Shown here piece by piece: positions 15,384 through 64,000 of a DNA stretch of 64,000 nucleotides. The position numbers were made by a program, and so were the translations under genes. Location of the stretch: the NCBI GenBank assembly GCA_000004985.1, contig GG738900.1. One strand, written 5' to 3'. How positions within the stretch are numbered: the first letter of the stretch is position 1; each line of letters starts with the position of its first letter. The DNA is from Naegleria gruberi. Taxonomy: Eukaryota. The notes under the pieces were generated by a model. It was not told the DNA's origin. It saw only the letters and a program-made list of their open reading frames with translations, and made no database searches.

Positions 15384-17234
15384 TTAGAATCTGCTGACAT
15401 CTCTGCCAAAGATTGCTGTTTTCACCCAATCAGAAGCGAGTGAAAATCTATTCTTCCAAGAAACTTGCTTGGAAAGATAGGCAGCTCTGTATAAATAGAA
15501 AGCTTGCCAACTGGTTACGGTAGTTCCAGAAAGGTCAGCAACTGCATGGTTGTTGCCAATGTAGGCGAATGAGCCCAAATTCTTATAAGTAAATGGTGGT
15601 ACATAGGTAATTCCCTTTTCAATGTCATTAAGGCAATTGCCAAGATAACTTCCTTGCTTGGAGGCGACTTGTGCTGTTTGTGGTAGTGGAGCATAGTATT
15701 CATTGTCAATTCTTTGGATGAGAGATTTGAATTCATCTTTGGAAAGAACATTATCTCCATTCACATCTGCTTGTGTGAAAAGCTTTTTGAGTTTTTGATT
15801 GATTGTGGCAAAGTTTGGATATTCCTTTTCTTTTGCCTTGATTAATGATTCCATTTCTGTAAATGATATAACTCCATCCTTATTGATATCAGCTTGTTCA
15901 AAGAATGACTCGTATTTTTGAACAAGTTTAGGTTGGTCAATTTTAGAACAATCTCCAATAGCATAAACATTATTCAATCCAACAACTTGTAAATGAGCAT
16001 CAACAACGAGTGATTTTTCATTCTTTTGCTTGTAAATATTTTCTGCCAATTTTTTAACAAGTGGAACTTGAGCAACACCAGTCGTCCAGATACAAACTCC
16101 AAAAGGTAATGATACTGGTTCACTCTTCTTTTGTTGATCCTTAAATACGACAACTAGATCATTTTCTCTCACTTCCACAACTCTTGCATTAGTTTTCAAA
16201 TCAACATTATTGAATATAAATTCCTTTTCGCACATTTCACTAATTTTACAATCATAGGTATTTAAAATATGATCTGAGCTATGAATAACTGTAATCTTGA
16301 GTTTTTCAACAATATCCTTTGGAAATAATTTGGAAATATCTTCCTTTACAAAGTCAACCAAGTAACCAAGTGTCTCAATTCCAGCATGTCCTCCTCCCAC
16401 AACTTGAAGAAGTCAATAAAATGTAAAGAAATGTAGAAACTTACCAACTACACTGAGTGCCTTTTGTCTTTCTTCATCTGTCAAGTTTGGCATGCAAGCT
16501 GATTCCAAAACATCCAAAAGTTTCTCTCTAATCTTGACTGCGTGTTCTGGTTGTTTCATTGGAACACTGTATTGATCAACACCTTTCACACCAAAACTAT
16601 TTGGTTGACTTCCAACAGCAATTACCAACTTATCATATTTCAATTCAAAATCATTAGCAATATCACTTCCATTCTGATGATGAATTACATAATTTGAAAT
16701 ATCCTTGCATTTGATCACACCCCTCTCATAATCAACATCATAACATTCAGCTTCATAATACTCAATCAGAGATTTATCCTTTCTTACTCTATTAATCACA
16801 CTTCTGATTGGTTCTGTAATACTTTGCATGGAAACAGTTCCTGCAAGAGCTGCTGGAAGCATTGGAGTAAAAAGGAAATAATTCCTAGGACTAACTACAT
16901 AAACATCATACAAATCCAAATCAATGGATTGAATCAGACCCACTGATGCCCAACCACTTCCAAGAATTACTAATTTCTTCTTTGGTTGATAGGGAGAGTT
17001 ATTAGTTGGTGATGATTTTTCTTCTGCTTGAATAATTAGATTATTAGCTAATACTGATCGGTGATGTTGATCAACATCATGATTGTCTTCATTGGGAGCA
17101 AATTTAACTTGATTGTTGTTGTTGTTGAGAAGGAAATAGGCAGAGGTTGTGATGGTTGCTGCTGCTGTGGTTAGGAGTAACTTTTTCTTGTTGATTATTG
17201 CCTTGGCTGAGAGTATTCTGAAGAGACTCTGCAT
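15384..17234 (-). CDS. Type II (alternative, rotenone-insensitive) NAD(P)H dehydrogenase with a Ca-binding EF-hand insert, likely mitochondrial and external-facing. Exons are 16445..17234 and 15384..16402 (intron 16403..16444, 42 nt).
   Basis: The N-terminus is a presequence-like region. The first dinucleotide fold is ILGSGWASVGL...YDVYVVSPRNYFLFTPMLP. The second is VVVVGGGHAGIE and is reconstituted only after splicing, which joins ...ALSVV to VVGGGHAGIE. EF-hands are present (DINKDGVISFTE, DVNGDNVLSKDE). The overall architecture resembles plant NDB and fungal NDE enzymes. Confidence 0.85.
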
Positions 17235-37300: not shown

Positions 37301-40300
37301 NNNNNNNNNNNNNNNNNNNNNNNNNNNNNNNNNNNNNNNNNNNNNNNNNNNNNNNNNNNNNNNNNNNNNNNNNNNNNNNNNNNNNNNNNNNNNNNNNNNN
37401 NNNNNNNNNNNNNNNNNNNNNNNNNNNNNNNNNNNNNNNNNNNNNNNNNNNNNNNNNNNNNNNNNNNNNNNNNNNNNNNNNNNNNNNNNNNNNNNNNNNN
37501 NNNNNNNNNNNNNNNNNNNNNNNNNNNNNNNNNNNNNNNNNNNNNNNNNNNNNNNNNNNNNNNNNNNNNNNNNNNNNNNNNNNNNNNNNNNNNNNNNNNN
37601 NNNNNNNNNNNNNNNNNNNNNNNNNNNNNNNNNNNNNNNNNNNNNNNNNNNNNNNNNNNNNNNNNNNNNNNNNNNNNNNNNNNNNNNNNNNNNNNNNNNN
37701 NNNNNNNNNNNNNNNNNNNNNNNNNNNNNNNNNNNNNNNNNNNNNNNNNNNNNNNNNNNNNNNNNNNNNNNNNNNNNNNNNNNNNNNNNNNNNNNNNNNN
37801 NNNNNNNNNNNNNNNNNNNNNNNNNNNNNNNNNNNNNNNNNNNNNNNNNNNNNNNNNNNNNNNNNNNNNNNNNNNNNNNNNNNNNNNNNNNNNNNNNNNN
37901 NNNNNNNNNNNNNNNNNNNNNNNNNNNNNNNNNNNNNNNNNNNNNNNNNNNNNNNNNNNNNNNNNNNNNNNNNNNNNNNNNNNNNNNNNNNNNNNNNNNN
38001 NNNNNNNNNNNNNNNNNNNNNNNNNNNNNNNNNNNNNNNNNNNNNNNNNNNNNNNNNNNNNNNNNNNNNNNNNNNNNNNNNNNNNNNNNNNNNNNNNNNN
38101 NNNNNNNNNNNNNNNNNNNNNNNNNNNNNNNNNNNNNNNNNNNNNNNNNNNNNNNNNNNNNNNNNNNNNNNNNNNNNNNNNNNNNNNNNNNNNNNNNNNN
38201 NNNNNNNNNNNNNNNNNNNNNNNNNNNNNNNNNNNNNNNNNNNNNNNNNNNNNNNNNNNNNNNNNNNNNNNNNNNNNNNNNNNNNNNNNNNNNNNNNNNN
38301 NNNNNNNNNNNNNNNNNNNNNNNNNNNNNNNNNNNNNNNNNNNNNNNNNNNNNNNNNNNNNNNNNNNNNNNNNNNNNNNNNNNNNNNNNNNNNNNNNNNN
38401 NNNNNNNNNNNNNNNNNNNNNNNNNNNNNNNNNNNNNNNNNNNNNNNNNNNNNNNNNNNNNNNNNNNNNNNNNNNNNNNNNNNNNNNNNNNNNNNNNNNN
38501 NNNNNNNNNNNNNNNNNNNNNNNNNNNNNNNNNNNNNNNNNNNNNNNNNNNNNNNNNNNNNNNNNNNNNNNNNNNNNNNNNNNNNNNNNNNNNNNNNNNN
38601 NNNNNNNNNNNNNNNNNNNNNNNNNNNNNNNNNNNNNNNNNNNNNNNNNNNNNNNNNNNNNNNNNNNNNNNNNNNNNNNNNNNNNNNNNNNNNNNNNNNN
38701 NNNNNNNNNNNNNNNNNNNNNNNNNNNNNNNNNNNNNNNNNNNNNNNNNNNNNNNNNNNNNNNNNNNNNNNNNNNNNNNNNNNNNNNNNNNNNNNNNNNN
38801 NNNNNNNNNNNNNNNNNNNNNNNNNNNNNNNNNNNNNNNNNNNNNNNNNNNNNNNNNNNNNNNNNNNNNNNNNNNNNNNNNNNNNNNNNNNNNNNNNNNN
38901 NNNNNNNNNNNNNNNNNNNNNNNNNNNNNNNNNNNNNNNNNNNNNNNNNNNNNNNNNNNNNNNNNNNNNNNNNNNNNNNNNNNNNNNNNNNNNNNNNNNN
39001 NNNNNNNNNNNNNNNNNNNNNNNNNNNNNNNNNNNNNNNNNNNNNNNNNNNNNNNNNNNNNNNNNNNNNNNNNNNNNNNNNNNNNNNNNNNNNNNNNNNN
39101 NNNNNNNNNNNNNNNNNNNNNNNNNNNNNNNNNNNNNNNNNNNNNNNNNNNNNNNNNNNNNNNNNNNNNNNNNNNNNNNNNNNNNNNNNNNNNNNNNNNN
39201 NNNNNNNNNNNNNNNNNNNNNNNNNNNNNNNNNNNNNNNNNNNNNNNNNNNNNNNNNNNNNNNNNNNNNNNNNNNNNNNNNNNNNNNNNNNNNNNNNNNN
39301 NNNNNNNNNNNNNNNNNNNNNNNNNNNNNNNNNNNNNNNNNNNNNNNNNNNNNNNNNNNNNNNNNNNNNNNNNNNNNNNNNNNNNNNNNNNNNNNNNNNN
39401 NNNNNNNNNNNNNNNNNNNNNNNNNNNNNNNNNNNNNNNNNNNNNNNNNNNNNNNNNNNNNNNNNNNNNNNNNNNNNNNNNNNNNNNNNNNNNNNNNNNN
39501 NNNNNNNNNNNNNNNNNNNNNNNNNNNNNNNNNNNNNNNNNNNNNNNNNNNNNNNNNNNNNNNNNNNNNNNNNNNNNNNNNNNNNNNNNNNNNNNNNNNN
39601 NNNNNNNNNNNNNNNNNNNNNNNNNNNNNNNNNNNNNNNNNNNNNNNNNNNNNNNNNNNNNNNNNNNNNNNNNNNNNNNNNNNNNNNNNNNNNNNNNNNN
39701 NNNNNNNNNNNNNNNNNNNNNNNNNNNNNNNNNNNNNNNNNNNNNNNNNNNNNNNNNNNNNNNNNNNNNNNNNNNNNNNNNNNNNNNNNNNNNNNNNNNN
39801 NNNNNNNNNNNNNNNNNNNNNNNNNNNNNNNNNNNNNNNNNNNNNNNNNNNNNNNNNNNNNNNNNNNNNNNNNNNNNNNNNNNNNNNNNNNNNNNNNNNN
39901 NNNNNNNNNNNNNNNNNNNNNNNNNNNNNNNNNNNNNNNNNNNNNNNNNNNNNNNNNNNNNNNNNNNNNNNNNNNNNNNNNNNNNNNNNNNNNNNNNNNN
40001 NNNNNNNNNNNNNNNNNNNNNNNNNNNNNNNNNNNNNNNNNNNNNNNNNNNNNNNNNNNNNNNNNNNNNNNNNNNNNNNNNNNNNNNNNNNNNNNNNNNN
40101 NNNNNNNNNNNNNNNNNNNNNNNNNNNNNNNNNNNNNNNNNNNNNNNNNNNNNNNNNNNNNNNNNNNNNNNNNNNNNNNNNNNNNNNNNNNNNNNNNNNN
40201 NNNNNNNNNNNNNNNNNNNNNNNNNNNNNNNNNNNNNNNNNNNNNNNNNNNNNNNNNNNNNNNNNNNNNNNNNNNNNNNNNNNNNNNNNNNNNNNNNNNN

Positions 40301-43300
40301 NNNNNNNNNNNNNNNNNNNNNNNNNNNNNNNNNNNNNNNNNNNNNNNNNNNNNNNNNNNNNNNNNNNNNNNNNNNNNNNNNNNNNNNNNNNNNNNNNNNN
40401 NNNNNNNNNNNNNNNNNNNNNNNNNNNNNNNNNNNNNNNNNNNNNNNNNNNNNNNNNNNNNNNNNNNNNNNNNNNNNNNNNNNNNNNNNNNNNNNNNNNN
40501 NNNNNNNNNNNNNNNNNNNNNNNNNNNNNNNNNNNNNNNNNNNNNNNNNNNNNNNNNNNNNNNNNNNNNNNNNNNNNNNNNNNNNNNNNNNNNNNNNNNN
40601 NNNNNNNNNNNNNNNNNNNNNNNNNNNNNNNNNNNNNNNNNNNNNNNNNNNNNNNNNNNNNNNNNNNNNNNNNNNNNNNNNNNNNNNNNNNNNNNNNNNN
40701 NNNNNNNNNNNNNNNNNNNNNNNNNNNNNNNNNNNNNNNNNNNNNNNNNNNNNNNNNNNNNNNNNNNNNNNNNNNNNNNNNNNNNNNNNNNNNNNNNNNN
40801 NNNNNNNNNNNNNNNNNNNNNNNNNNNNNNNNNNNNNNNNNNNNNNNNNNNNNNNNNNNNNNNNNNNNNNNNNNNNNNNNNNNNNNNNNNNNNNNNNNNN
40901 NNNNNNNNNNNNNNNNNNNNNNNNNNNNNNNNNNNNNNNNNNNNNNNNNNNNNNNNNNNNNNNNNNNNNNNNNNNNNNNNNNNNNNNNNNNNNNNNNNNN
41001 NNNNNNNNNNNNNNNNNNNNNNNNNNNNNNNNNNNNNNNNNNNNNNNNNNNNNNNNNNNNNNNNNNNNNNNNNNNNNNNNNNNNNNNNNNNNNNNNNNNN
41101 NNNNNNNNNNNNNNNNNNNNNNNNNNNNNNNNNNNNNNNNNNNNNNNNNNNNNNNNNNNNNNNNNNNNNNNNNNNNNNNNNNNNNNNNNNNNNNNNNNNN
41201 NNNNNNNNNNNNNNNNNNNNNNNNNNNNNNNNNNNCACCATAATAGTTTTCGGTACAATTACAAAGATCTGGACGGTAACAAATACCACGTCTATCCTTA
41301 GTACATACGCCAGTAAGTCCATTACAGATTGGAATTTCACAGTTAAAGCCTCCATATCCAAATGTACTATTACATGTGCAGTTATTATAAAAATCACAAG
41401 AACCACGTCCACTACAGACATCTGGAGAGTTGTATTCAATATCGGCGCAAGTTGTCCATTCACACCAAGTTCCATTATAATTAGGATAACAGCTACATGT
41501 ATCCTTTGCAATACAAGCGCCATGACCATTGCTACAAACTGATGATTCAGTACCTAGAGTACCGTTACACATGGCAATAGAACAATCTTGGCCGTATTGA
41601 TCTGGTAAACACAAGCAAGTATTGTTACCTATACAGTAACCATTATTTGAGCATCCATCTTCAACAATTGATTTGGAATTGAAACAGAATGTAAGTAAAC
41701 ATTGCTCATTAATGTATGGTTCGTATCCGTTGAATGTGATTGGAGGAGTGAATGTTACATCGAATAATAGCATCTGTGTACCACCCATAAACCATAAAGC
41801 GCCCTGAATAGTATCATAAATTTCAATTTGATGGTATGGAGCCATTCCTACCACTGTACCGTGAACATTTCCAGAGAAAAAATTACCATTTCTACCATAG
41901 TCCCAAGTCAACCAAAAGACATTTCTATAGGAGGCACATAACAGATAGTAAAAAACGGCATTATAATAATTGACGTATGGAGCCTTAAAAACAACAGGCT
42001 CAAGACCATGGATAATAAAAATATGATCCTTAATTGTGATACCATTAGGGAAACAATACACACCACCATGCTTGATAACAGTAATATTCTGTAATTCATC
42101 TTGACTATTAATGGTATGTGTACAATCCATGTACAATAATTCCATGGATTTCTTTTCCATTTCTTGAATAATCAACTCTGTCATCGGATCATTTTGAGGT
42201 TTTGAAATGACAACATCATTTCCACTTGGTTCGTACATGACTGGAGTTGTTGGTGAGTAGGCATGAGAAACCTGAATGTCAGGTAAGGCGAAACTTGCCT
42301 GTAATTCCTTTTTAGAGTTTCTGGCAATCATAATAGGTTTGGAACTGATAAGTTTGTAGCCAGCAAATATATCTACAGCACAAGCCTCACCAATGAAACC
42401 AGTTTGGCAAGTACAATTGTTGTATGAAATACAAGTACCGTGTCCAGAACAAACTAAAGGAGAATTAGAATCATCACTGAAACATTGTGTCAATTCACAA
42501 TTAGAGCCAAAATAATTATCTACACAAGAGCAAGAGTCAGGAGCAGTACAGTTACCTAGTGAGGTACAAACAGAAGCATTAGAGAAATGCACACCAGAAC
42601 AATTCCAATGTTGGCACTTATCACCATAATATCCATACAGACAATTACAGTTATCAGAACCAATACAGTCACCGTTACCAGAGCAAACAGTTGAATCGTT
42701 TGATCCTATACCATAACACCAATGAACGGTGAAAATCTCTTCATCACAATTGTTACCAGAGTATCCATCAGTGCACAAGCATTTGTCTAAGGCTGTGCAA
42801 TTTCCTTGGCCATTACATACCAGTGAGGAGTTTGACAATACACCAAAGCATTGAGTAACTTGGCAATCATTTCCAAAATAATTGGAACTACATTGACAAT
42901 TATTTAAATCTACACAAGCGCCATTACCAGAGCAAACAGTTGAATCGTTTGATCCTATACCATAACACCAATGAACGGTGAAAATCTCTTCATCACAATT
43001 GTTACCAGAGTATCCATCAGTGCACGAGCATTTATCTAAGGCTGTGCAATTTCCTTGGCCATTACATACCAGTGAGGAGTTTGACAATACACCAAAGCAT
43101 TGGGTAACTTGGCAATCATTTCCAAAATAATTGGAACTACATTGGCAATTATTTAAATCTACACAAGCGCCATTACCAGAGCAAACAGTTGAATCGTTTG
43201 ATCCTATACCATAACACCAATGAACGGTGAAAATCTCTTCATCACAATTGTTACCAGAGTATCCATCAGTGCACAAGCATTTGTCTAAGGCTGTGCAATT

Positions 43301-46344: not shown

Positions 46345-48097
46345 TTATTTGTCAAGAATCTTTAAAGGAAGTTTGCCCTTCCATTCTGCAAACTTTTCCA
46401 GTAGCGGCATCATGTGAATAAGAATGAGAGAGAACATTCTAGTCTTCTTCCAAGCATCATGAGGATCCACCAAAATATCCTTCGAAATGTGTGGTTTCTT
46501 TGGTCTTGGGAAGTTGACACCAGTTGCAGCTCCTAAAATATCACCAACTGGATGTCTGGTCTTTTCTTGGTATTTGAGCAATTTAACAACCATATCACAA
46601 CTACTTGTAATTAAGCAACCTTAATAATAATCATATTAAGTATTAAATATTCATAAATACTTACCTGCACCATAACGTGGTTGACCCAATCCAATATAAA
46701 TCAAATTCTTTCTATTTGGAACAAAGATACCATGAATTAACTTTGGATATCCAAATTCAGTCTTTGTAACAAAATTATCCAACAATGGTACTGATGTAAA
46801 GTAACCAGTACAACAAACGATAACATCAAATTCCCTCTCTTCACCATTCTTGAATTCAACCTTATTTCCTCCTTTGAAACATTTGATATCTCCGTGTGGA
46901 TGAATTTCACCTAACTTTAAATATTGCAACAATTCAGAGTTAATAGTTGGGTGAGTTTCAAAGAGTCTGTGAGTTGGTGTTGGAATACCATAGTCCTTTT
47001 CATAGTCCAAACCAGTTGTAATTTTCAAAATCAATGTAAAGATTATTTGTTGAAGACGGAGTGGCAAATAAGGAATGATCAATTCAACAGATGGTTTACC
47101 AAATAAAGTTCTTGGTAAAAAGTAATAACCTCTTCTGATAGAAATGTGACTTTCCTTACCATATCTTGCAGCTTCAACAGCAACATCACAAGCACTGTTT
47201 CCTCCACCAATGACCAAAACACGTTTATCCTTAAAGATTGAAGGTTCCTTATAATCCTTACTGTGAATTAAGAGTCCAGTAAATTTGGATTGACCTTCAT
47301 AAGATGGCATTCTTCTACACCAATGGTGACCATTATTAATAATAACACCCTTATAGATACGTGTGAATTTTTGACCATTCTTTTCAAATTCAACCTTATA
47401 TTCAGAATCCTTATTCTCAACAGGTTCAATACTATTAACAGTAGTTTCCAATGATAATCTTTCAGCAATTCTGTAATGTTTACAATAATCATGGAAATAT
47501 TCCATCATTTGACGACAGGATGGGAATTGAGGGAATGAAGAAGGCATTGGATAATCTTTGAATTCAGTTGTCAATCTACTACTAATGATGTGTGTCGATT
47601 CATAAACTCCAACACTCCAATTACCTCCGATAACATTATTAGTATCTAATGAACAGAGTTAATTTTTCCATGAAATTTAAAAAGATTAACATTCGTGTGT
47701 GAATAAAATTATTCGATAATAATAATTAGAAACCTACCGACAATATCAAAAGGAATACCATAACGAGTCAATGTGGCACTACTTCCCAAACCACTGAATC
47801 CACAACCAACAATTAAAAATTTGTTTTCTAAATTAATTTAAATCATCAAATCATCAAATCATCATCGGATCATGAAAATATATTAATATTGATAAATTGA
47901 TTATAGTTTGAAAACATACCAGTCTTTTCGAATGGAGCATCACTGAAAATTTCATCATACTTGCTTCTATCGTAGTGGAATGGAAATTCAGTTGGAGGAC
48001 ATTTCACTGGATCTGACCAGTAGAAAATCAAATCACTCCAATAAAGCAAGTAGAGTCCCAATAGAGAGATGGCAATGCAGCCAAGAAGTATTAACAT
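46345..48097 (-). CDS. Flavin-containing monooxygenase (FMO-like, class B flavoprotein), about 507 aa, with four exons: 47920..48097, 47738..47827, 46665..47645 and 46345..46619.
   Basis: Exon 1 encodes an N-terminal membrane anchor (MLILLGCIAISLLGLYLLYW...). Exon 2 carries the FAD GxGxxG motif (KFLIVGCGFSGLGSS). Exon 3 carries DTNNVIGGNW (FMO-identifying-like), the NADPH GxGxxG/A motif (VLVIGGGNSACDVAVEAA) and IVCCTGY (FATGY-type motif). The donors are GTATGT, GTAGGT and GTAAGT, and every junction restores the frame. Confidence 0.8.
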
Positions 48098-48497: not shown

Positions 48498-51299
48498 TTA
48501 ATATTCATCATCATCAGATCCATAGATTTCGCCCAATTCCCACAAATTCAAACGACGGCTAATGGCAAAATCTTGTTCTTCGAGATAGGACTTGGCAACT
48601 GACTTGAATTCAGACAAAAGGAGCTTCTTATCAGCAAAAACTAATCCACTACGGATCATTTGCTTATTCAAGTTATCTTCTTGCTTGGCACCATTTTGGA
48701 CAAGGGTGACATAGTTTACACCTGCATCAGAATATTCAACAGTTAATTGCCATTCACCTTCCATCAAAGTTTCTCTCAAAAAGGTTTCCAATTCAAATCT
48801 AAGATTTTCGTGATCCTTAACGAAAGCCAAACGAGCCTTTTGAGCACATTCTGGAATAGTGAGGAGTTGATTACCGGCTGGAATAGTCTTGAGAGTTGAA
48901 ATGGCAACTTCTTCGCTGTTACCAAAATCAGAATATAAAACAACAGCATTAGCATTATTGACAGAAATAACCTTAGCTCTGTACCAAGAATTATCTTCAG
49001 TGAATTGGGCAAGACAGACTGAACCAACAGTTGCTGAAGCAAGAGCTTCAAGTTGAGCAACGTTAAGTTCAGCAATCAACTTTTCAACAGTCTTCAACTT
49101 TTCGACAACATCAGAACCTTGGTAGTAGAAAGTAATTGGATCTTCAAAATCGGTAACTCTGATAGTTTGTGTCTTTCTAGAGTGAGAAACAGAGAATGAT
49201 TGAGCAACTGGCTTGGATTTTTGTTCTTGTTCTGGTTGTTCTCTCTTCTTTCTTTCTGGGAAAGCAACAGTGTGATCTTCCAATTTCCAAACACCCTTCT
49301 TGGCCTTCTTAGCCTTACCTTCAGCTTCATTCAATTCTTCAAAGATCTTCAATCTCTTAGCATATGGTTGAACAATAGCAAGACCAGCTTCCAACAAAGT
49401 GTTAGTATAATTCTTACCATTGATCAACATTTGACCAGTGAGTGAGCTAGCCTTATCAACTTCAGCTTCAAGAACGAGTTCAACATCTCTGCATGAAGTA
49501 GAGATCAAAGTAAGTTGCTTAGCTTCTTCAGCCAAATCCTTACCGAGTGGTTTATCAGATGATGGAATAGCAATACCAGCCAATGAGAAAGTGACAACAG
49601 AGGCATCATTTGGAAGACTCAAAACGAATTTAGAAGCAGAAAGAATCTTTTCAACAACAGCCTTAGTGTTACCAGACTTACCAGTCAAAAGCTTGTTCAA
49701 TTTACCAGCAGCATCACCAGAAACAACAGTATATGGATGTTGTGGAGCTCTCTTCTTTCCGTGGAGACCCTTTTGTCTCTTGATGGCTTCATTTTCAGCC
49801 AAAATGAGACTATCAAAAGCAGATGATCTTTCTTCATCAGCCTTAAGCTTCATAACTTCAGCATAACCTTCTCTGACCAATTCAACAGCAACAGATTTCT
49901 TATTGACAAGAACAGTACAGAATCTTCTAAGTTCCTTCTTTTCAGTACCTAATTCTCTTCTATAGTCAACTTCAACTTGAATTTCCTTTCCAGCAACCTT
50001 GCTTCTCAACAATTCTCTAGCTTCCCAAGCCCATTGTTCAGATTCTGGCTTCTGTTCAGCTTGCTTGGAAGCTTCCTTCTTTTCTGGCTTCTTTGTGTAT
50101 GAAATGAATTTCTTGGTTCTAATGTTTGAGAGAGAAATCTTTTCTTCTTGTCCATCATTCTTGACAATCTTCAAAGTATCACCTGAAAGAACTTCCAAAA
50201 CTCTAGCAGTGAAACCAGTGTCAGATTGATGTAATGATTGTTTTGGTGGTTCATAATCAACCCACAAATTCTTTCTTTCATTCTTAGCTTTTTGTTCAGC
50301 ACTTCTGAATCTTGGAGCATACTTAGACTTTGGAGCGCTTCTTTCATCAACAGAAACATATCCGATCATCAAGAGTTCTTCTTGATAAGTGAATGGCTTG
50401 TCACTATTTTCATCAACAGAAATAATAATACTTCCGTGCAAATTGCTTGTCTTTTCCTTTTGTTCCTTAGCATCCTTGCCATCCTTTGATTTATCCTTCT
50501 TTGGAGTATCAATACCTTCGAACAAGACAGTAACATCTCTGTTCAACAAACGAACTTCAGTATGAGTCTTGGCTTCCTTTGAGAATGGTTGAGCAACCTT
50601 TTGTTGAGTTTCTTTACCCTTGGTTGTACTTGGGCAATAAACACCAGTCAAATTCATGAAAACAACTTCATTAGTTGGGAGTCTAACCTTCAAAGCAGTA
50701 CCGCTAATGACATATTCAACAATAACATCAACAGTCTTACCCTTGAATGATTTCAACAAAGCTTGTGGATCTTCAGTCTTGGCTTGTTTGGCATATTTCT
50801 CGCTATTTGACCAAACACCAATCTTTTGTTCTTCAGCAGCTTTTTGGAGAGCAATCAATTTCTTATAATCATCAGATTGATTCTTAATATCCTTGACTTT
50901 ACCCCAACCAGCTTCAACAACAGATTCATTAATATTTTCATCATCCAAGAAGATTGTAGCATAGTTCATTCCTGTTTCCTTGACAGTGTAATCGACTCTG
51001 AATCTAATGGTTTTACCAATGAGTTTCTTTCTCAAGAATTCTCTTGCTTCAAAAGCCCAAGGCTATTATTGTTGTAAAGTAAATTAAACACAACAAATGT
51101 GTGTGAATTAGATTATTGTTCTAGTTATCAATGATTTTCACAAAGAAATACTTACTTCATCTTCTCCATCTTTTGTACCTAAACGTGGTGCTTTAACATC
51201 AGCAAGGATTAAAGTCTTTTCTCTATCGTAGAATTGTGGATGGCAGATTTTAATAGTGTTACCACCAAGGACTGCTTTGACGATACCTTCCATAGACAT
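48498..51299 (-). CDS. Tudor-SN (SND1, staphylococcal nuclease domain-containing protein), about 902 aa. Exons are 51156..51299 and 48498..51062 (intron 51063..51155).
   Basis: Exon 1 MSMEGIVKAVLGGNTIKICHPQFYDREKTLILADVKAPRLG matches the Tudor-SN N-terminus. Exon 2 has four SNase-like repeats and a Tudor domain (...CLAQFTEDNSWYRAKVISV...). The GTAAGT donor and AATAG acceptor both sit in phase 0. Confidence 0.85.
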
Positions 51300-51878: not shown

Positions 51879-53474
51879 TTATTTAGTCTTTTTAGATGGT
51901 TTTTCCGAATCTCCTGATGACTTCTTTCGTTTTCTTGTAGTTCCATCATCCTTAGCATCCAATCCAGCTTCCTTCAGAAGAGCAGCAGTTTCTGACTCCA
52001 AATCATCTTCATCTTCATCACTGGCATCTTCGTCTTCTTCATCAGATTTGCCAACAAAGTCTTCATCATCTTCTTCATCATCATCTCCCATAATTTGATC
52101 CATTTTAATCTTATCATCTCTGATATCTTTTTCTGTTTTGAGGTCCTTACTCTTTAAGAATTCTGACAATAGTTCACTTTCATTTTGATCAATATTCAAA
52201 AAGGTGTGACTCTTGCCATTCTTCAAAATAATTGACAAATCAAAGAATCTATTACCACTAGAAGCTCTAAGGAATTTGATTAATTTGATTTCATCATGTC
52301 TTATATAAATAACTGGTTTGTGTAAGAAAAAGACTGATTTTTCAAGGAAGAATAATTGACCTTCGTTGGCCTTAAGTGAACATTTCAATGCCTTATCATT
52401 TCCATGTGTAACATATTTACCAGATCCGATAAGTTTCTTCTTAGTTAGTGATCTCAAAACTTTAGCAAAAACTTCATAGATCTTTCCATTCATCTTAGGA
52501 GTCAAATCTCCCATTTCATTCTTTTCTAATTTAATAGAAAGTGGTTCATCCAATGTTTTGTGTTTTTCAATTTGGAATACAATGTGGAAGTGTGATTTTT
52601 GTCCTTGTCTGAATGGTGTATCTAAACTAATGACAAGGTACATGTGTTGGTCACCAGGTTTTGGAAGAAGGAAGAGTGTGGAAATTTGTTTGTATGTAAT
52701 CTTGTGTACATAGGTTCTACCATAGAGCCTGAGATGGCTCTTGAATAAGTCAACATTGTATTTACCTCTAGGAATGAGAACTGGCATTTGTGAAAATGAT
52801 GCAACAGGTGTTCCCAAATCTTTAGAAAGATCAGCTTTTTGTGAAATCTTTTCATGTAAAGCATCTGCTGTCATATCTTTGATTGCTAGATTCTTTTCTT
52901 CTTGTTCCTCTTCATCCTGATCTTCTGCTGGTTCGGATGTTTCAGGACAAACAAAACGAATTTCTGTCAATTGGATTGAATTCTTATCTGTATGTTCATC
53001 ATCTCTAAATTCCAAAAGTAATTCGGAGTTCTTTGGTATCTTTTGGCAATTTTTAATATCATCAGCAAGTGAAATTGAAAATAATTCCTTGTCTTCAAAG
53101 TACATCATCATATGACTACCTTTAATGACAGGTTTTCCCCAGTTAACACCCTTCATACAAGTTTCTACCTTGTTGAAAGGAATATCACTTTCGACTTGGA
53201 CTTGAACAATTTGTGATTCCAACTGTTCATAATCGGCTTCTTTGAATCCTAGGTAGCTAACAAAATCGTCATCAGCTTTCCAAAGTCTCAACTCGTATCC
53301 TCTAGGTGTGTATAACCAATCAATTGATGAAATTTCACTTTTTTTAACGGCTGAAATGATCGATTCGTTCCCAACAGATTTCCAAACAAACATTTCTTCA
53401 TTCTTTGCATCAACAATAATAGAACCTTGAGTGAAGGATCTACCGAGAAATATGTGAGAAAACTCCTTTGACAT
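51879..53474 (-). CDS. FACT complex subunit SSRP1/Pob3-type, with no HMG box, 531 aa, single exon.
   Basis: Collinear with SSRP1 over its length. [10 protein letters not shown] matches [75 protein letters not shown] matches [79 protein letters not shown] matches YVHKPPVHIRFDEI. An acidic/basic C-terminal tail follows. Confidence 0.9.
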   Translation of the reverse strand: [531 protein letters not shown]

Positions 53475-57186: not shown

Positions 57187-59193
57187 ATGCAAGAAGAATC
57201 TTCACCACTCGTTACTTCATCATCATCAACATCAAATCAACATGCTGCTGCCGATCATGAGGAATCATCTTCTTATAATAATAACACGTCAACTCCCACC
57301 CTGATTGAGGAGGATTATGGAGTGTATAAGAAACAACGACATCCTATCATTGTCAAGTTTTTGCAATTTAAACAATTCTATCAATCGGAAAAGTTGAGAA
57401 AAGTTCGGAGATGGATTGCATTTGTTATTGGTGCTGCCATGATGATTGCTGCTGGAACACAGTATGCATTTTCATCGATTAGTCCTTCTTTGAAAAAGTA
57501 AGTTGTGTGAAAAAGATCAATATATTTACCTAGTAATAATTATTTTAATTATTAATCATTGGAATATTAAAATAGACGATTTGATTTGACTCAAACGGAG
57601 GTGAATACTATTGGAACAGCAGCAAATTTGGGAACTAATTTCAGTTTTCTCTTTTCTTTGGTGAATGATTTTCTTGGAGCTCGTTCTTGTAGTTTTGTTT
57701 CTGGTGCCTTCTTGTTTGGATCTTATTTTCTGATGGCATTGACAGTTTCTGGAGCTATTCCAGGAGCAGAGAATTATATTGCACTTTCTGCATTCATGTT
57801 TATTATGGGTAATAGTAGTGGTGGAGCTTATACAGGTAGGTTTCGTATTGAGCTTTTTGAATTTATTATTTGCAGCTGCCATGACAACAAGTGTGAAAAA
57901 TTTTCCTGAAAGAAATAGAGGATTAGTAGTTGGTGTTCTTGCCTCATTCTTTGGTATCAGTAGTGCCATTTATTCTGGCTCATATCAGTATATTTTCCAA
58001 TTGCAATTACAACCTTACATGATATTTTGTGCCGTTTTGGGAGGAATAGTTGTCTTGATTTTGGGAACTGTATTTTTGGATGGAAAGTCTTCAGCCGATA
58101 AAAATGATGCTGGGAAGAAGGTATCTACTGCCAATACCATTAATTCATCTCAACAAGAAGCCACCACCACCTCTGAGGAAGGAAAGCCAATAGTTGTGGA
58201 TCCAAGCACTGGTGAGCTACCTGCAGAACAAACTTTGGAATCTACAACAATGATGGAAGAGGATACTCAAACCTATGAAGAAGATGAACTCAGGGAAAAA
58301 TTACAACAATTGGAAATTCCAAATGTTAACTCTTTGAAGATGCTCATTTCACTTGATTTCTGGCTTGCTTTTTTGGTTATTTTCATTGTAAGTGTGTGAA
58401 ATTTTAGATTTAACAATATATTTTTATAATTTACCTCTAATATAATAGGTTGTTGGATCAGGAATTACTGTCATTAACAATTTAGGATCACTCGTATTGG
58501 CCTATGGTGGATACAATGGCCAACAAAACATGATGGTGATTGTCTTTTCAATTTGTAATTGTTTGGGAAGATTACTTTTTGGTATCTTGAGTGACAAGTT
58601 ACTTTCTCCAAAGAGAGGTATCACTAGAATTACATTCCTTTCCATTTGTATTGTCATGATGACAGTCATTCAATTCTTATTTGCCGTGATGCCTCTTGAA
58701 GGTTTTTATCCACTTATCATTTTCTTGGGTGTAAGTTTTACTAAATTTTACAAAAAATTGTAAATCAAACGTGAACACCAATCAATTCATTCAAATTTGT
58801 CTCATAACTTTCCAGATTTGTTATGGAGGAACATATGCACTGACACCAACATTCAACAGTGAAAGATTTGGAGCTAAATATTTTGGTATGAATTCTACAA
58901 TTCAATCAATGGCAGCAAGTTTAGGATCCTATGCATTCTCAACTGGATTGGCCGGCTATTTGTATCAAGTTAATATTGAAAAACCAAGAACTCTAACATG
59001 TCATGGTAGACCTTGCTATGAAGCAACTTTCTACATTTTATCTCTTCTTGGTTGTGTTGCCCTGATTATTTCCTTAATTTTACACAAGAGAACTTTGTGG
59101 TTATACAAGACATTGTATAAGAGAAGACATTATGCAACGCTATTGGATCGATTGATTTCAAATAATGGAAAGAGTACAACTAAAAACATATAA
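57187..59193 (+). CDS. Nodulin-like / major facilitator superfamily transporter with five exons: 57187..57497, 57576..57835, 57876..58387, 58449..58730 and 58816..59193.
   Basis: RWIAFVIGAAMMIAAGTQYAFSSISPSLKK together with LTQTEVNTIGTAANLGTNFSFLFSLVNDFLG forms a Nodulin-like N-terminal domain split by intron 1. VKNFPERNRGLVVGVLASFFGISSAIYS follows. There are about 12 TM helices and a central hydrophilic loop. All four introns (78, 40, 61 and 85 nt) have GTAAGT/GTAGGT donors and AG acceptors that restore one frame. The ORF track start is a TTG; the first ATG is 57187. Confidence 0.8.
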
Positions 59194-59546: not shown

Positions 59547-62081
59547 ATGGTAGCTTCCATACATCCTGTAAACTCTGACGACCAAGATGACAACCCTCAC
59601 CAAGCAGTCAAATCAGAAACAGACTCAGTTTTATCCGATCACACCTCTTCCTTCAATGCTCAATCCATCAAATTCTGCCTAATCTTCCTAATTAGTGGAC
59701 TAGTTATCTTGAGTGTTCTCGTCCTCTCTGGCACATGGTTAGCAAGTTTTGCTCCAGCCATTACAAAATCATCCAATGCTGAAAGAGATTCCGAATTGAA
59801 ATCAATCATTAATTATATTGAAACAACTTTTAAAGAATTGGTCATGTCTTCGGTGAATATTAAACAGCAAATGGTTGGGGATGGGATTGATCCGTATGAT
59901 GAGAAGGTGACTCGACAAAAGACATTTAGTGGATATAAGGTTAGTATTTAATTGTAATCTTTTACAAAAATTGTAATATTGTAATATTTCCAAATATAGA
60001 GTGTTAAGAAAAATCATGATGGAATGATAATATCGAGCTATGTTGGTGATCCAAACAATTACTGTTTTGGAACAATCAATTGGGGCAATGGCTCTGCAAT
60101 CTTTAACATTACCAAAGTTGACCAAAAAATTTACTATTGCGACAATTGGGAAGAAACACTTTTTTGTAATTCAAGTTCAACTCCAGATGAGATTGCAGCT
60201 TCTTTTGATTTAAGTGTCATTATCGCTCAATGCAAGGACACGCCAACTGTCATTTCCTACACGCCAAGTTATGCTGACCCAGCCATGCCTCAATATGTCT
60301 TTATTTCATTGATTAATTGTGTGGCTAATCCAGTTACCAACAAATTTTGGTATTATTACGGAAATGATTTGACTACGGGTTCAATTTCTGAATTTTTACA
60401 AAAGAAAGTTGAAACTTTGGAAGGATCGAGAAGTTTCATTGTCGAAACTTCGTCTGATTATTTGATTGCAGTTGATAATTCAGTGTCTATTTCAAGATGG
60501 GGAAGTGATGGTGCATTGGTGAGAGAAACAGCTCTTACTGTATCAGATTCGTCTATTAATTCGATTACTGCCACTACACGAAACTTTCATCAAAAATGGA
60601 AAGATTTCAAATGCAATGAAATCGAAGTTTCAACCTCATCAACAGATTACATCTCTGTTTATAGACTATGTACAGATACAAACATTGATTGGATCATTGT
60701 CTTGTCCATTCCTCAATGGAAATACATTGGATCAACAATCATTGCTGTCATCACTTCCTTAATTGGAAGTTTACTAATCGTAACTATTGGAATCGTATTG
60801 GGAATTGTTGTGTCCATAAAGATTGTTAAGCCATTCAGAAATTTGATGGATCTATTCGAAAGTGTGGCCAATATGGATTTGGATAACATTGAAGTGATTC
60901 CAAGTTATTTCTCCGAAGTTAAATCTTTGCAGAAACATTTCGTCAACATGGTCAAACAGATTAAACTCTATCGATCTTTCATTCCTGCTCATATATTGTC
61001 AGAATTGGATTCAGGTAATGAGGAGGAGAAAGTTGGAGGAGTTAAAGCTGCTTCAGGAAAGGTGGAGGAAAGTATGAGATCTAGCTCTGAACGAAACTCG
61101 ATGGAAAGTGGAAATTCGAAAGAATCAAGGATGGGTGCTCATTCATCAAAGCACTCATCGAATCAATCGTCAAGAAAGAGATATTCGAAAGATATTAATC
61201 GATTTGCTCTTTATTTGGAAAAGAGAACTTTTACTGTTATTCAATTAAGGATAAAAGGCCTTAACGAATTGTTGGGAAATACAGAATACGAAAATGTTAC
61301 CAAGATTCTAAGTGAAATATTCGAAACTATTACTGTGAGCAGTAAGCTATATGGTGTTCATGTTTCTGGTTTGGAAAATGACAATATTTACATTTCCATT
61401 AACGCTTCATCCAATCAGACGAATCATGAAGAGAAGGCAGCTACTCTTTCTCGAGCCTTAGAAGAAAGATTACTCAAACTCAAGTATTCGAAATGGAAAA
61501 ATTTGGAAAGTTTCAAGAAGAAACCATTCTTACTGGAAGATTTGACCTTTCGAATGGCCATCCACTCTGTTCAAAGTCACGTTGGTAATATTGGAACGAA
61601 TGACAGTAAGGCCTTCACCATACTTGGAAGTGGCAAGACCAATCTATCCGAAATGATTGAACTTGCCGATTCTCTTGACATTTCAATTGTTTGTTCTGAC
61701 AAAATCAAGGAAAAGATTGACGTTTCATTCCAGACAAGATTTTTGGATTTCCAACAATTTCTCAATGATTCACTCGTCATGTCAAGCTCAGCCACTAATA
61801 GAAATAGTAACAATGATGAGATGGTTAATTGTATGACGAGAGGTTCTGTGCACGAGTTGGGAGTTTCCAATCATGTTCAAGATGATGAATGGTTATACGA
61901 ATTGCAAGAGAAGGAGAAGAAACAAAAGTGGACACTGTATAATCAGGGAGTTGAGCATTTCTTGGAAGGAGATTTCGAATTGGCTTTGGAAAAGTTTAGT
62001 CAACATGCGATGAAAGATCCTACAGATAAGGCAGCAATTCGAATGGTGGAAAAGTGCAAGGACGTTGGAAATAATTTCTAA
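59547..62081 (+). CDS. Receptor-type membrane protein with a class III nucleotidyl-cyclase homology domain (apparently catalytically degenerate) and a C-terminal TPR-like tail, about 825 aa. Exons are 59547..59939 and 60000..62081.
   Basis: The order of domains is TM1 (FCLIFLISGLVILSVLVLSG), a roughly 250-aa extracytoplasmic Cache/CHASE-like region, TM2 (IIAVITSLIGSLLIVTIGIVLGIVVSI), a HAMP/CTE-like linker (LYRSFIPAHILSEL), a low-complexity insert, and then a cyclase-like core. The core reads TFTVIQLRIKGLNELL...YGVHVSGLENDNIYISI...AATLSRALEE...FRMAIHSVQSHVGNIGTNDSKAFTILGSGKTNLSEMIELA...SIVCSD. The metal-binding Asp of the FADIVGFT motif is replaced (IQLRIKG) and the transition-state Arg is replaced (NLSEM). 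The C-terminus WTLYNQGVEHFLEGDFELALEKF is TPR-like, as in many class III cyclases. Confidence 0.6.
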
Positions 62082-62108: not shown

Positions 62109-64000
62109 TTAAATAACCAATTTACTAAACTTGAGGAAGAGTGCTTGTGTTAATGTTCTGGTTTTTTCATTCTTGCTCATAATCATGCTACAGAAGGACA
62201 CGTGGAGGATCTTCCAATGTTTTAGGAATTGTTCATCCTTTAGTTCAGTATATCTTTCCAAGAGAATATCGACAAGATCGTTAAAAGTTGTGAAATAGTA
62301 ATCGGATGGAGATTTCACAATGAGAGAGGAGTATTGTTGGAAGATGGTATTAATGGTGGAAATGAATCCTTCCTCCTTCTCATTGATGGAATGATAAATG
62401 GTAAAGTAGGATTCGAATACAAGTGTCAAGGATTGAATTTCTACATCAATACTGCAGTTTGTAGATTTTTCAACATTGTAGGAATGATAATCAGTATAAC
62501 ATGAGGTGAGACTATCAATCAAATGTTGAACAATAGAGTCAATCTTGTTGTTTTTGAGTAGATAATCCTTGATAGATTTGACAGTCTTGATTACTTCACT
62601 TCTACACAAATTGCTATCTGAAATCTCTCCACATAATGAGTTTACATTTTCTGTTAAAAGATTCTTGATTATTTCACAAACATTCATCCAGCATTCCTCA
62701 GTAAAATTTTCTCCAAACAAGTCAATGAATAAGAGTAAATTTGAACAGCCAACTGTAACTAATTTCAAGCTCTTGAATTCTTTGCTTTCCTTTCTGAAAC
62801 AGGTTGGTAAAATTTCAAAAATGGATTTCAAAGCTGCACTATTATCAGAAAAGTAAGAAGTAAAAGCTGTTATCAATAACTTGATAGAGTCATCACCAAC
62901 TCTTTGTACCCAAACATTATTGGTATTATCATCCTTGAATTGGTCGAATATTGGTAATAAAACTCCTTTGAAAATTACATTCCAATTCTCTTTTGACAAT
63001 TTAGAAGGAAGGGCAGTTTCGAGGAGAGCTGCATGCAAAGCTTTAAATGCTTTAATTTGTACTTCCTCTCTATTATCATTAGAGACAACAGTTGCATAGC
63101 TTGAAAGAATTTGGTACCACTGTCCCAAGAAATCAACCTCCTCCATCTTCTCGCTAGATTTCTGAATGAGTTCAATAGCTTCTACAGACAACTTGCAGGT
63201 TACTTCACTGGCAAATTGACTGAGGCAATTGATCAAGTTACTGAATGCATTATTCTTTTGAACATTTTCAAAATGTTCACCTTCTTGCACAATACAACGA
63301 AGGACATTGAAAGCTTCATTTTCAGTGGCTGCAAAGCCAGCTGTCATGGAGAGCATGCCGAACAATTCCTTCCAACCTGGTTTGATAAATGAAGATCTGA
63401 CAAGCACAATTTGATGAACGGATTGAGTGACTAATTTTCTAACTTCCTTATCCAAACAAGTTTGATAGATACGAGTGAATGGTTGCAAGAATTGTTGTTG
63501 GTAATCAATGATGGACTCTTGTTCTAAAAGTTTCATGCACAACTTGCACAATGAGTCAATACAATAAAGAGCAAGGGTGGTATTCTTGGAGCTGGCAATT
63601 TGTGAAATGAATGGACAAATATGACTCTCCCACAAGGTATCCAAAATGGTATTGATACGGTGCATGTTCAAATACAAGCTCTCAATAACTTTCTTCAAGT
63701 AAAAGATGAGATTGGTACTCTTCTTCTTACACAATCCTTCAATGTAGAAGGTAAGAGATTCCTCACTCAATTTTTCACAATTAAACACAATTCTATCGAC
63801 AATGTCAGGATCTATGGCTTTGAGCATTGGGGTTTTATCGACAGTATCAAAAATGTGCAATCTATCAATTTCTGCAATAATGTCAATGATATCACTCCAG
63901 GCATCTTTGATATTGTTTCCTTCTGTCTCTGCCAATTCTAACAAGAGTTTCAATGCTTCGACATGTCTTGCCCGTAATTGACTCTTGAGTCCAGTGCATT
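62109..64000 (-). CDS. C-terminal part of a large alpha-helical HEAT/ARM-repeat protein. The CDS is partial and continues beyond the window end. It may be the C-terminal region of a Sec7-family ArfGEF (BIG/GBF) or a MON2-like protein.
   Basis: The frame is open from 64000 to the stop at 62109, more than 630 codons, with no in-window start; the ORF track M is a TTG. The sequence is a repetitive amphipathic-helix composition typical of ARM/HEAT solenoids. Confidence 0.45.
   Translation of the reverse strand, partial: CTGLKSQLRARHVEALKLLLELAETEGNNIKDAWSDIIDIIAEIDRLHIFDTVDKTPMLKAIDPDIVDRIVFNCEKLSEESLTFYIEGLCKKKSTNLIFYLKKVIESLYLNMHRINTILDTLWESHICPFISQIASSKNTTLALYCIDSLCKLCMKLLEQESIIDYQQQFLQPFTRIYQTCLDKEVRKLVTQSVHQIVLVRSSFIKPGWKELFGMLSMTAGFAATENEAFNVLRCIVQEGEHFENVQKNNAFSNLINCLSQFASEVTCKLSVEAIELIQKSSEKMEEVDFLGQWYQILSSYATVVSNDNREEVQIKAFKALHAALLETALPSKLSKENWNVIFKGVLLPIFDQFKDDNTNNVWVQRVGDDSIKLLITAFTSYFSDNSAALKSIFEILPTCFRKESKEFKSLKLVTVGCSNLLLFIDLFGENFTEECWMNVCEIIKNLLTENVNSLCGEISDSNLCRSEVIKTVKSIKDYLLKNNKIDSIVQHLIDSLTSCYTDYHSYNVEKSTNCSIDVEIQSLTLVFESYFTIYHSINEKEEGFISTINTIFQQYSSLIVKSPSDYYFTTFNDLVDILLERYTELKDEQFLKHWKILHVSFCSMIMSKNEKTRTLTQALFLKFSKLVI

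What the first reader, a model, noticed from the sequence alone, without database searches (positions are those of the whole stretch)
59547..62081. Receptor-like protein with a Cache/CHASE-like ectodomain, two TM helices and a degenerate class III cyclase domain plus TPR tail
The domain order is TM, ectodomain, TM, HAMP/CTE-like linker (…LYRSFIPAHILSEL…), cyclase homology domain, TPR-like C-terminus. This mirrors osmosensing and receptor adenylyl cyclases such as dictyostelid ACG and bacterial Cya-type enzymes. However, the first metal-binding Asp motif (FADIVGFT) reads IQLRIKGL, and the Asn-x-x-x-Arg transition-state motif reads TNLSEM. The protein is therefore likely a pseudo-cyclase that either signals by heterodimerising with an active cyclase or has been repurposed as a sensor scaffold. 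A membrane pseudo-cyclase receptor has not, to my knowledge, been characterised in Amoebozoa.
Basis: inference. Interest (0 to 1): 0.7.

Follow-up and report, generated by a model that had tools for sequence, protein, structure and literature searches.

The report
Naegleria receptor with dead cyclase domain
This is an intact Naegleria gruberi gene for a bacterial-style membrane receptor whose output domain has the fold of a cAMP/cGMP-making enzyme but has lost residues needed for catalysis, and every relative examined in a large family has lost them too.

Summary
Positions 59547-62081 (+) encode an 824-aa protein from two exons with a 60-nt GT..AG intron. Its order is TM1, extracellular double-Cache domain, TM2, HAMP, a conserved YRSFIPxHLL helix, a 62-aa Ser-rich disordered spacer, a class III cyclase homology domain (CHD) and a short TPR-like tail.

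The organism is Naegleria gruberi (Heterolobosea), not an amoebozoan. The gene is also not a one-off: all 89 relatives tabulated, from the 167 cluster representatives at E<=1e-30 (Naegleria spp., Percolomonas, a diplonemid, environmental contigs), lack the Arg, and 88 lack the first Asp.

Because it lacks part of each half-site, it cannot complete an active site with any partner. The best reading is a ligand-sensing pseudo-cyclase receptor with a non-catalytic output. Its partner and ligand are unknown. It is a new variant of a known kind, of moderate interest.

The parts
59547..59939 (+). Exon 1 (aa 1-131): cytosolic N-terminus, TM1, and the start of the ectodomain (stalk helix)
   Evidence: ORF list and sequence. 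Spliced translation. The N-terminus 'M..IHP' aligns with the homologues' starts.
59940..59999 (+). Intron, 60 nt, GTTAGT...ATATAG, with an in-frame stop
   Evidence: Sequence. The exon junction is spanned without a gap by 9 full-length homologues.
60000..62081 (+). Exon 2 (aa 132-824 plus the stop codon)
59670..59738 (+). TM1 (aa 42-64, KFCLIFLISGLVILSVLVLSGTW)
   Evidence: Kyte-Doolittle window >1.6. Mean pairwise identity 53% among paralogues.
59739..60722 (+). Extracellular double-Cache (dCache-like) sensor domain, aa 65-372 (spans the intron). It has 7 Cys and 3 N-glycosylation sequons.
60723..60806 (+). TM2 (aa 373-400)
   Evidence: It continues as one long helix into the HAMP in the AF2 models.
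60807..60962 (+). HAMP-like domain (aa 401-452): KPF..L... AS1, connector, SEVKSLQKHFVNM AS2
   Evidence: The top PDB hit of the family sub-profile is the NarQ HAMP, end to end, E 0.018. hhalign to a dCache_1-HAMP chemoreceptor gives E 1e-3. The AF2 model shows helix-loop-helix. Borderline statistics.
60963..61010 (+). Conserved helix KLYRSFIPAHILSELD (aa 453-468). It is the most conserved segment of the family; F, P and H are invariant.
   Evidence: Mean pairwise identity 69%. Invariant F458/P460/H462. It resembles the 'YLSPALVAKL' segment that directly precedes the CHD in the canonical cyclase P0223. A 23-aa profile finds no cyclase in the PDB.
61011..61196 (+). Ser-rich low-complexity spacer (aa 469-530; 17 Ser of 62), predicted disordered
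   Evidence: pLDDT <50. Mean identity 17%. Composition.
61197..61877 (+). Degenerate class III cyclase homology domain (aa 531-757). The core is aa 531-712. It is followed by a poorly conserved insert where canonical enzymes have the KGK hairpin, then the last strand, VHELG.
61248..61250 (+). Arg548 at the position of the first metal-binding Asp (FxDIxGFT)
   Evidence: Same register in the phmmer, hmmsearch (CyaB and Cya2) and hhalign alignments. No Asp at this position in 88 of 89 relatives.
61380..61382 (+). Asp592, the second metal-binding Asp, retained (LENDN aligns with FVGDC)
   Evidence: It is D or E in 11 of 14 close relatives.
61641..61655 (+). NLSEM, in place of the transition-state motif N-x-x-x-R: Asn679 kept, Arg replaced by Met683
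   Evidence: HMMER and BLASTP gapped register. The hhalign ungapped register gives Thr678/Glu682. No Arg in either register. The aligned position is L, M or I in 81 of 89 relatives, never Arg or Lys.
61878..62078 (+). C-terminal DEWLYEL motif plus a TPR-like four-helix tail (aa 758-824)
   Evidence: AF2 shows four helices with pLDDT 80-89. Pfam TPR_1 E 0.06. Designed TPR proteins E 0.014-0.07. hhalign aligns it with the C-terminal tail of the canonical bacterial cyclase P0223.

Best explanation
The gene encodes a bacterial-type, two-pass membrane receptor of Naegleria gruberi. An extracellular double-Cache domain binds an unknown small ligand. The signal passes through TM2 into a HAMP domain and a strongly conserved helix (YRSFIPxHLL). 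The cytosolic output module is a class III cyclase domain followed by a small TPR-like tail.

That cyclase domain keeps its fold, its 'GNIG' hairpin, the second metal Asp and probably the Asn. It has lost the first metal-binding Asp (Arg548), the transition-state Arg (Met683) and the base-specifying Lys/Glu (Gly588). The KGK phosphate-binding hairpin region is replaced by a poorly conserved insert. It therefore most likely makes no cAMP or cGMP.

All 89 relatives tabulated from a large family show the same losses, yet the domain is about as conserved as the sensor domain. It is therefore a maintained pseudo-enzyme, not a decaying one.

The inferred output is conformational. Ligand binding changes the arrangement of a dimeric pseudo-CHD/TPR module, which binds or releases a cytosolic partner.

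Shown: architecture, folds, missing residues, family-wide pattern, conservation. Inferred: loss of activity, dimeric state, and protein-interaction output.
For: - Architecture and folds.
- CHD homology.
- Catalytic positions: four alignments agree on Asp1 and Asp2, and none finds an Arg.
- Family pattern: Asp1 is absent in 14/14 close and 88/89 wider relatives, and Arg is absent in 89/89. A regex scan finds no canonical F-x-D-I-x-G-F-T motif in any of the 89.
- Purifying selection: mean identity among 10 full-length paralogues is 42% for the CHD, 38% for the ectodomain and 17-24% for the disordered linkers.
- Family size and spread: 167 cluster representatives at E<=1e-30, from N. gruberi, N. 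fowleri, N. lovaniensis, Percolomonas and Lacrimia.
Against: - No activity assay exists.
- Class III enzymes with unusual substrate-binding residues are known, so sequence alone cannot prove inactivity.
- Many close relatives carry Asp/Glu two residues after the lost Asp1, which might partly compensate. In this protein that position is Lys550.
- The Asn/Arg register is ambiguous by one residue.
- No interaction partner, ligand or expression data are available.
- The dimeric state was not modelled.
Confidence: 0.62

Rival explanations
1. Ligand-controlled modulator of active cyclases. The pseudo-CHD pairs with the CHD of a catalytically competent Naegleria paralogue. Both composite sites of such a heterodimer would be incomplete, so the receptor would act as a regulated inhibitor or allosteric subunit that tunes cNMP output.
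For: - CHDs act as head-to-tail dimers (established knowledge).
- The 'GNIG' hairpin is invariant in the family and identical in type to that of CyaB, Cya2 and P0223.
- Naegleria carries dozens of cyclase genes: at least 81 (PMC9928731).
- Fungal NeoR, whose cyclase domain is inactive on its own, works only in heterodimers with an RGC partner (PMC10622942).
Against: - Unlike NeoR or mammalian C1/C2, this protein lacks part of each half-site (Asp1 on one side; Arg and the base-specifying Lys on the other). It cannot complement a partner.
- No partner was identified.
- The 62-aa disordered spacer would loosen the coupling between HAMP and CHD.
- No multimer model could be run.
Confidence: 0.22
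2. Nucleotide-binding sensor. The degenerate CHD still binds ATP or GTP (or a cyclic nucleotide) without turnover, and couples the extracellular signal to cellular nucleotide status.
For: - The second Asp, the Asn and several invariant Lys residues (K610, K668) are retained in the CHD.
Against: - The base-specifying residues are lost.
- The KGK hairpin that holds the triphosphate is replaced by a poorly conserved insert.
- No binding data exist.
Confidence: 0.1
3. It is still an active cyclase that uses non-canonical residues, for example the conserved Asp/Glu at +2 and a Lys in place of Arg.
For: Most close relatives have D or E two residues after the Asp1 position, and invariant lysines lie nearby.
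Against: - In this protein both the Asp1 position and the +2 position are basic (Arg548, Lys550).
- The residue at the Asp1 position varies freely in the family (H, L, Y, K, R, F), which is not the pattern of a catalytic residue.
- From established knowledge, mutation of either metal Asp in class III cyclases abolishes activity.
Confidence: 0.04
4. A decaying pseudogene or an assembly/annotation artefact.
For: No identical or >=50%-identical protein exists in the two large protein collections, although the neighbouring gene's product is present.
Against: - The reading frame is intact for 824 codons, with one clean in-frame intron.
- All family-invariant residues are present, and the length and termini match the homologues.
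- Its identity to relatives is as high in the CHD (39%) as in the ectodomain (40%).
Confidence: 0.02

Closest known systems
Bacterial receptor-type class III adenylyl cyclases (P. aeruginosa CyaB, PDB 3r5g; CHASE2-cyclases such as metagenomic P0223)
   Different: Those enzymes keep FxDxxGFT, K..GD and NxxxR. This protein has Arg, Gly and Met at those positions. Its sensor is a dCache instead of MASE2/CHASE2. A 62-aa Ser-rich spacer is inserted before the CHD.
dCache-HAMP chemoreceptors and kinases (PctD, TlpQ, McpX, PscC, B. subtilis McpB; NarQ for the HAMP)
   Same: The input half is the same: TM1, a double PAS-like ectodomain with a long stalk helix, TM2 and HAMP.
   Different: The output is a pseudo-CHD, not an MCP signalling domain or a kinase. 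There is no sequence-level Cache match. The ectodomain is Cys-rich and carries N-glycosylation sequons, as expected for a eukaryotic surface protein.
NeoR subunits of fungal heterodimeric rhodopsin-guanylyl cyclases
   Same: A membrane receptor with a single CHD that is inactive on its own (PMC10622942).
   Different: NeoR forms a working enzyme with its RGC partner. Here residues from both half-sites are missing, so complementation is not possible. The sensor and lineage are unrelated.
P. aeruginosa class III adenylyl cyclase-like ATP-binding protein (PDB 6yii)
   Different: It is described in the entry as a transcriptional regulator and was solved as a soluble protein, not a membrane receptor. 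ATP binding by the Naegleria domain is untested.
LapD-type receptors (HAMP plus degenerate GGDEF-EAL)
   Same: The logic is the same: a membrane protein with a HAMP followed by a catalytically dead nucleotide-cyclase-fold domain that is used as a switch. Fold-level hits are 3pjx and 6pwj. Their function is from established knowledge.
   Different: It is a GGDEF/EAL domain, not a CHD. LapD signals inside-out on c-di-GMP binding. The two are not homologous at the family level.
Dictyostelium ACG and trypanosome receptor cyclases
   Different: Those are active enzymes with other ectodomain types, in other lineages.

Membership tests
Class III nucleotidyl cyclase (CHD, Pfam PF00211) | Cyclase (palm-like) fold superimposable on solved CHDs | tested here: met
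Class III nucleotidyl cyclase (CHD, Pfam PF00211) | Significant sequence match to CHD profiles or members | tested here: inconclusive
   Pfam Guanylate_cyc gives no hit for this protein. Six of 14 relatives hit it at E<=1, best 2.9e-4. However, phmmer to CyaB gives E 2e-4, the family profile gives E 1.5e-8, and hhalign to a PF00211 protein gives E 4e-6. Homology is therefore met, but no Pfam Guanylate_cyc match is reported for this protein.
Class III nucleotidyl cyclase (CHD, Pfam PF00211) | Two metal-binding Asp residues | tested here: not met
   Asp1 is replaced by Arg548. Asp2 is retained as D592.
Class III nucleotidyl cyclase (CHD, Pfam PF00211) | Transition-state Asn and Arg (N-x-x-x-R) | tested here: not met
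   The motif reads NLSEM: Asn679 is kept and Arg is replaced by Met683. The alternative register gives Thr678/Glu682. No relative of the 89 has Arg there.
Class III nucleotidyl cyclase (CHD, Pfam PF00211) | Base-specifying pair (Lys/Asp for ATP, Glu/Cys for GTP) | tested here: not met
   Gly588 and Gly676 occupy the aligned positions. In the family, Ser is the commonest residue at the first position.
Class III nucleotidyl cyclase (CHD, Pfam PF00211) | Synthesis of cAMP or cGMP | not testable with these tools
   Needs an enzyme assay.
Complementing half-cyclase (mammalian C1/C2, sGC alpha/beta, NeoR/RGC type) | Carries one complete half-site: either both Asp, or Asn+Arg+base-specifying residues | tested here: not met
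   It has only Asp2 from one half and only Asn from the other. The same holds across the family.
dCache sensor domain | Two stacked PAS-like modules on a long N-terminal helix, located between two TM helices | tested here: met
dCache sensor domain | Match to the Pfam dCache_1/2/3 sequence models | tested here: not met
   No Cache family is reported at E<=10 for the query, and none is among the 25 listed of 28 families matched at E<=1 by the 14 relatives. The similarity is at fold level only.
dCache sensor domain | Known ligand-binding motif (for example the amino-acid motif) | not tested
   Model coordinates could not be inspected. The segment 'SYADPAMPQY' only loosely recalls the dCache 'DPRxRPWY' region. 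That comparison is from memory and is not a test.
HAMP domain | About 50 aa directly after a TM helix: AS1 with a conserved Pro, a connector, and AS2 with a conserved Glu and an F-x-x-M | tested here: inconclusive
   The position and motifs are present. The NarQ HAMP is the top PDB hit, end to end, but at E 0.018. hhalign to an MCP HAMP gives E 1e-3 with probability 21%. Pfam HAMP gives E 0.16 in one relative.
Cyclase transducer element (CTE) | Short conserved helix-turn element immediately N-terminal to an active CHD | tested here: inconclusive
   The YRSFIPxHLL helix is the most conserved segment and resembles 'YLSPALVAKL' before the CHD of P0223. However, its 23-aa profile finds no cyclase in the PDB, and it is separated from the CHD by 62 disordered residues.
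TPR repeat | Tandem 34-aa helix-turn-helix repeats matching TPR profiles | tested here: inconclusive
   Pfam TPR_1 gives E 0.06, below the cut-off. Designed TPR proteins give E 0.014-0.07. The AF2 model shows four helices.

The most novel reading that the evidence does not exclude
A large family of ligand-sensing dCache-HAMP pseudo-cyclase receptors, found in Heterolobosea and at least one diplonemid, has no cyclase activity. It either titrates or gates active cyclase paralogues by forming dead heterodimers, or it signals through a cNMP-independent partner bound by the pseudo-CHD/TPR module. If so, part of the well-known 'cyclase expansion' of Naegleria is not enzymatic but a distinct receptor class.
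Probability: 0.3. Interest if true: 0.65.

Novelty: new variant of a known kind. Interest (0 to 1): 0.48.

Why it matters
Naegleria is often cited for its very large repertoire of adenylate/guanylate cyclases, which is read as evidence of rich cAMP/cGMP-based environmental sensing. This gene and all 89 relatives tabulated carry the cyclase fold but not the catalytic residues. Many of them are labelled 'guanylate cyclase domain-containing protein' or 'adenylate/guanylate cyclase' in public databases.

If they are non-catalytic, counts of cyclases in these genomes are inflated. A conserved receptor class with an unknown output would then exist in a lineage that includes the pathogen N. fowleri. 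It would also be a clear eukaryotic case of a bacterial-type sensor module (dCache-HAMP) coupled to a pseudo-enzyme.

Pseudo-enzymes are common, however, and no function is shown here, so the interest is moderate.

Tried and rejected
- Pfam on the single protein gave no Guanylate_cyc, Cache or HAMP hit. I therefore moved to family profiles and fold comparison.
- Exact look-ups of window proteins and of SSRP1 in the contig index found nothing. An exact look-up of the spliced and the ORF-only products in the 15-billion-protein collection also found nothing.
- A third homologue search with the 89-sequence profile returned few named hits because the word prefilter saturated. It did yield one canonical cyclase (P0223) and one dCache_1-HAMP chemoreceptor (P0224), which were useful for profile alignment.
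- A 23-aa profile of the 'CTE-like' helix against the PDB found nothing relevant.
- BLASTP of a spacer-deleted construct against P0223 did not extend from the helix into the CHD. The 'insertion into a canonical pre-CHD segment' idea therefore remains unproven.
- A scan of bacterial and archaeal genomes for the family's most conserved peptide found no relative.
- The idea that an Asp at +2 or +3 could be the true Asp1 under another register was rejected for this protein, where those positions are Lys550 and Gly551. For the close family, three independent alignments place the conserved Gly on the canonical Gly.
- CHASE was rejected as the ectodomain type because all top fold hits are dCache domains.
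- The literature search found no paper describing pseudo-cyclases in Naegleria.
Full report
**The gene**

The ORF list shows an ATG-initiated frame at 59547-59951 and a long frame at 60024-62081. Between them lies a 60-nt sequence, GTTAGT...ATATAG, that carries an in-frame stop. Joining 59547-59939 to 60000-62081 gives an uninterrupted 824-codon reading frame. Nine full-length homologues align across the junction without a gap. Their N-termini ('M..V/I.P') and C-termini coincide with those of this model.

**The organism**

The window has about 35% G+C, spliced eukaryotic genes and an assembly gap of Ns at 36291-41235. The SSRP1 gene at 51879-53474 (-) is 100% identical over its full length to a Naegleria gruberi protein. 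It is 58% identical to N. lovaniensis and 55% to Willaertia. All named close homologues of the target are from Naegleria. The organism is a heterolobosean (Discoba), not an amoebozoan.

**Architecture**

- Two hydrophobic segments (aa 42-64 and 373-400) flank a 308-aa region.
- An AlphaFold2 model of the exon-2 product has pLDDT of about 85 in the ectodomain and in the cytosolic globular domain. It has pLDDT below 50 in two linkers.
- A model of the full-length paralogue P0001 adds TM1 and a 70-residue stalk helix.
- No Cache model of Pfam matches by sequence.
- The ectodomain has seven Cys, mostly conserved, and three N-glycosylation sequons.
- Directly after TM2 comes a HAMP-like segment. 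A 30-sequence sub-profile has the NarQ HAMP as its top PDB hit, aligned end to end, at a borderline E of 0.018. hhalign to a dCache_1-HAMP chemoreceptor gives E 1e-3.
- Next is the helix KLYRSFIPAHILSEL. It is the most conserved part of the family, at 69% mean identity with F, P and H invariant.
- That helix resembles the 'YLSPALVAKL' segment that directly precedes the catalytic domain in a canonical bacterial cyclase. I could not confirm it statistically as a cyclase transducer element.
- It is separated from the cyclase domain by 62 Ser-rich disordered residues.
- The C-terminal 67 residues form four helices. They have weak TPR similarity and align with the tail of the canonical cyclase P0223.

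**The cyclase domain is real**

- Pfam reports nothing for this protein.
- phmmer of the cytosolic part finds P. aeruginosa CyaB at E 2e-4.
- The 14-sequence family profile finds CyaB at 1.5e-8 and Cya2 at 3.6e-6.
- hhalign to a PF00211-annotated CHASE2-cyclase gives E 4e-6.

**The cyclase domain is degenerate**

| Canonical feature | This protein | Support |
|---|---|---|
| First metal Asp (FxDIxGFT) | Arg548 (QLRIKGLN); the +2 position is Lys550 | Same register in every alignment |
| Second metal Asp | D592, retained | |
| Base-specifying Lys/Glu | Gly588 | |
| Transition-state N-x-x-x-R | N679-L-S-E-M683 | HMMER and BLASTP; hhalign is shifted by one, giving T678/E682. No Arg in either register |
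| KGK hairpin region | Poorly conserved, low-confidence insert | |

Its refutation conditions are not met.

**The family**

- A profile search of 1.84 billion cluster representatives gives 167 hits at E<=1e-30. Many span the full architecture.
- Named members come from N. gruberi (at least eight paralogues including this one), N. fowleri, N. lovaniensis, Percolomonas cosmopolitus and the diplonemid Lacrimia. There are also environmental contigs whose versions carry an N-terminal ankyrin block.
- Of the 89 relatives tabulated, the Asp1 position holds Asp once. The Arg position is L, M or I in 81 and never Arg or Lys.
- No member contains a canonical FxDIxGFT motif anywhere in its sequence.
- The residue at the Asp1 position varies freely (K, R, H, Y, L, Q...), which is not how a catalytic residue behaves.
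- The pseudo-CHD is nevertheless about as conserved among paralogues as the sensor domain (42% versus 38%), against 17-24% for the linkers. It is therefore maintained by selection.
- A scan of bacterial and archaeal genomes for the family's signature peptide found nothing.

**Mechanism**

Class III cyclases form head-to-tail dimers in which one subunit supplies the two Asp and the other supplies Asn, Arg and the base-specifying residues (established knowledge). This protein has only one residue of each half. Neither a homodimer nor a heterodimer with a fully competent CHD would contain a complete site. This differs from mammalian C1/C2. It also differs from fungal NeoR, whose cyclase domain is inactive alone but works in a heterodimer with RGC (PMC10622942).

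The best-supported reading is a ligand-sensing receptor whose output is the conformation of a pseudo-CHD/TPR module, which acts on a partner. Rivals are:
- a regulated inhibitor or allosteric subunit of active paralogues;
- a nucleotide-binding sensor, with PDB 6yii as a precedent by its title;
- residual non-canonical catalysis;
- a pseudogene.

The last two are unlikely, for the reasons given above and because the frame is intact.

**What is known**

[quoted passage not shown] The Naegleria pangenome paper counts at least 81 cyclases without commenting on catalytic residues (PMC9928731). Full-text searches found no description of pseudo-cyclases in Naegleria. Public databases label several relatives 'guanylate cyclase domain-containing protein'.

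**Verdict**

It is a new variant of a known kind of receptor cyclase, with moderate interest (0.48).

Noticed in passing
window 59547-62081: The product of this gene has no identical protein and no relative of 50% identity or more in the two very large protein collections. The neighbouring SSRP1 product, by contrast, is present at 100% identity as a N. gruberi protein. The gene appears to be missing from the public N. gruberi protein set.
   Followed up: partly
window 22310-43789 (-), with an N gap at 36291-41235: A single giant minus-strand reading frame of more than 7000 codons, interrupted only by the assembly gap, encodes a massive EGF-repeat protein. It matches Pfam EGF_TEN, EGF_2 and EGF_Teneurin, at E down to 1e-140.
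   Followed up: partly
L001 5661-9182 (JGI metagenome contig Ga0606064_0021, 130 kb) and proteins P0111, P0114, P0123: Environmental relatives of the family carry an N-terminal ankyrin-repeat block of about 390 aa in front of the same TM-Cache-TM-HAMP-degenerate CHD-tail architecture. The host organism is unknown. The contig's neighbouring genes mostly lack Pfam hits.
   Followed up: partly
proteins P0001-P0013 (alignment A1), position two residues after the lost first Asp: Ten of the 13 closest relatives have Asp or Glu at +2 ('H-L-D-G-L-N-E-W'), whereas this protein has Lys and P0007 has Arg. Whether that acidic residue has any role is unexplained.
   Followed up: no
P0223 (metagenomic CHASE2-adenylate cyclase), residues ~637-681: A canonical, catalytically intact bacterial cyclase has a C-terminal tail that aligns with the TPR-like tail of the Naegleria family. 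The tail is probably an ancestral appendage of this cyclase subgroup rather than a Naegleria addition.
   Followed up: partly
window 1-64000, other genes: The neighbouring genes are ordinary eukaryotic genes with no evident functional link to the target:
- an RSN1/OSCA-like channel, 11038-14037 (+)
- a JAB/MPN protease, 14043-14945 (-)
- an NDH2 with EF-hands, split by an intron, 15384-17234 (-)
- a P450, 44363-45241 (+)
- an FMO, 46651-47574 (-)
- an SND1-like protein (four SNase domains plus Tudor), 48498-51035 (-)
- a nodulin-like MFS transporter, 57779-58399 (+)
- a BIG/Sec7 C-terminus, 62109-63953 (-)
.
   Followed up: partly
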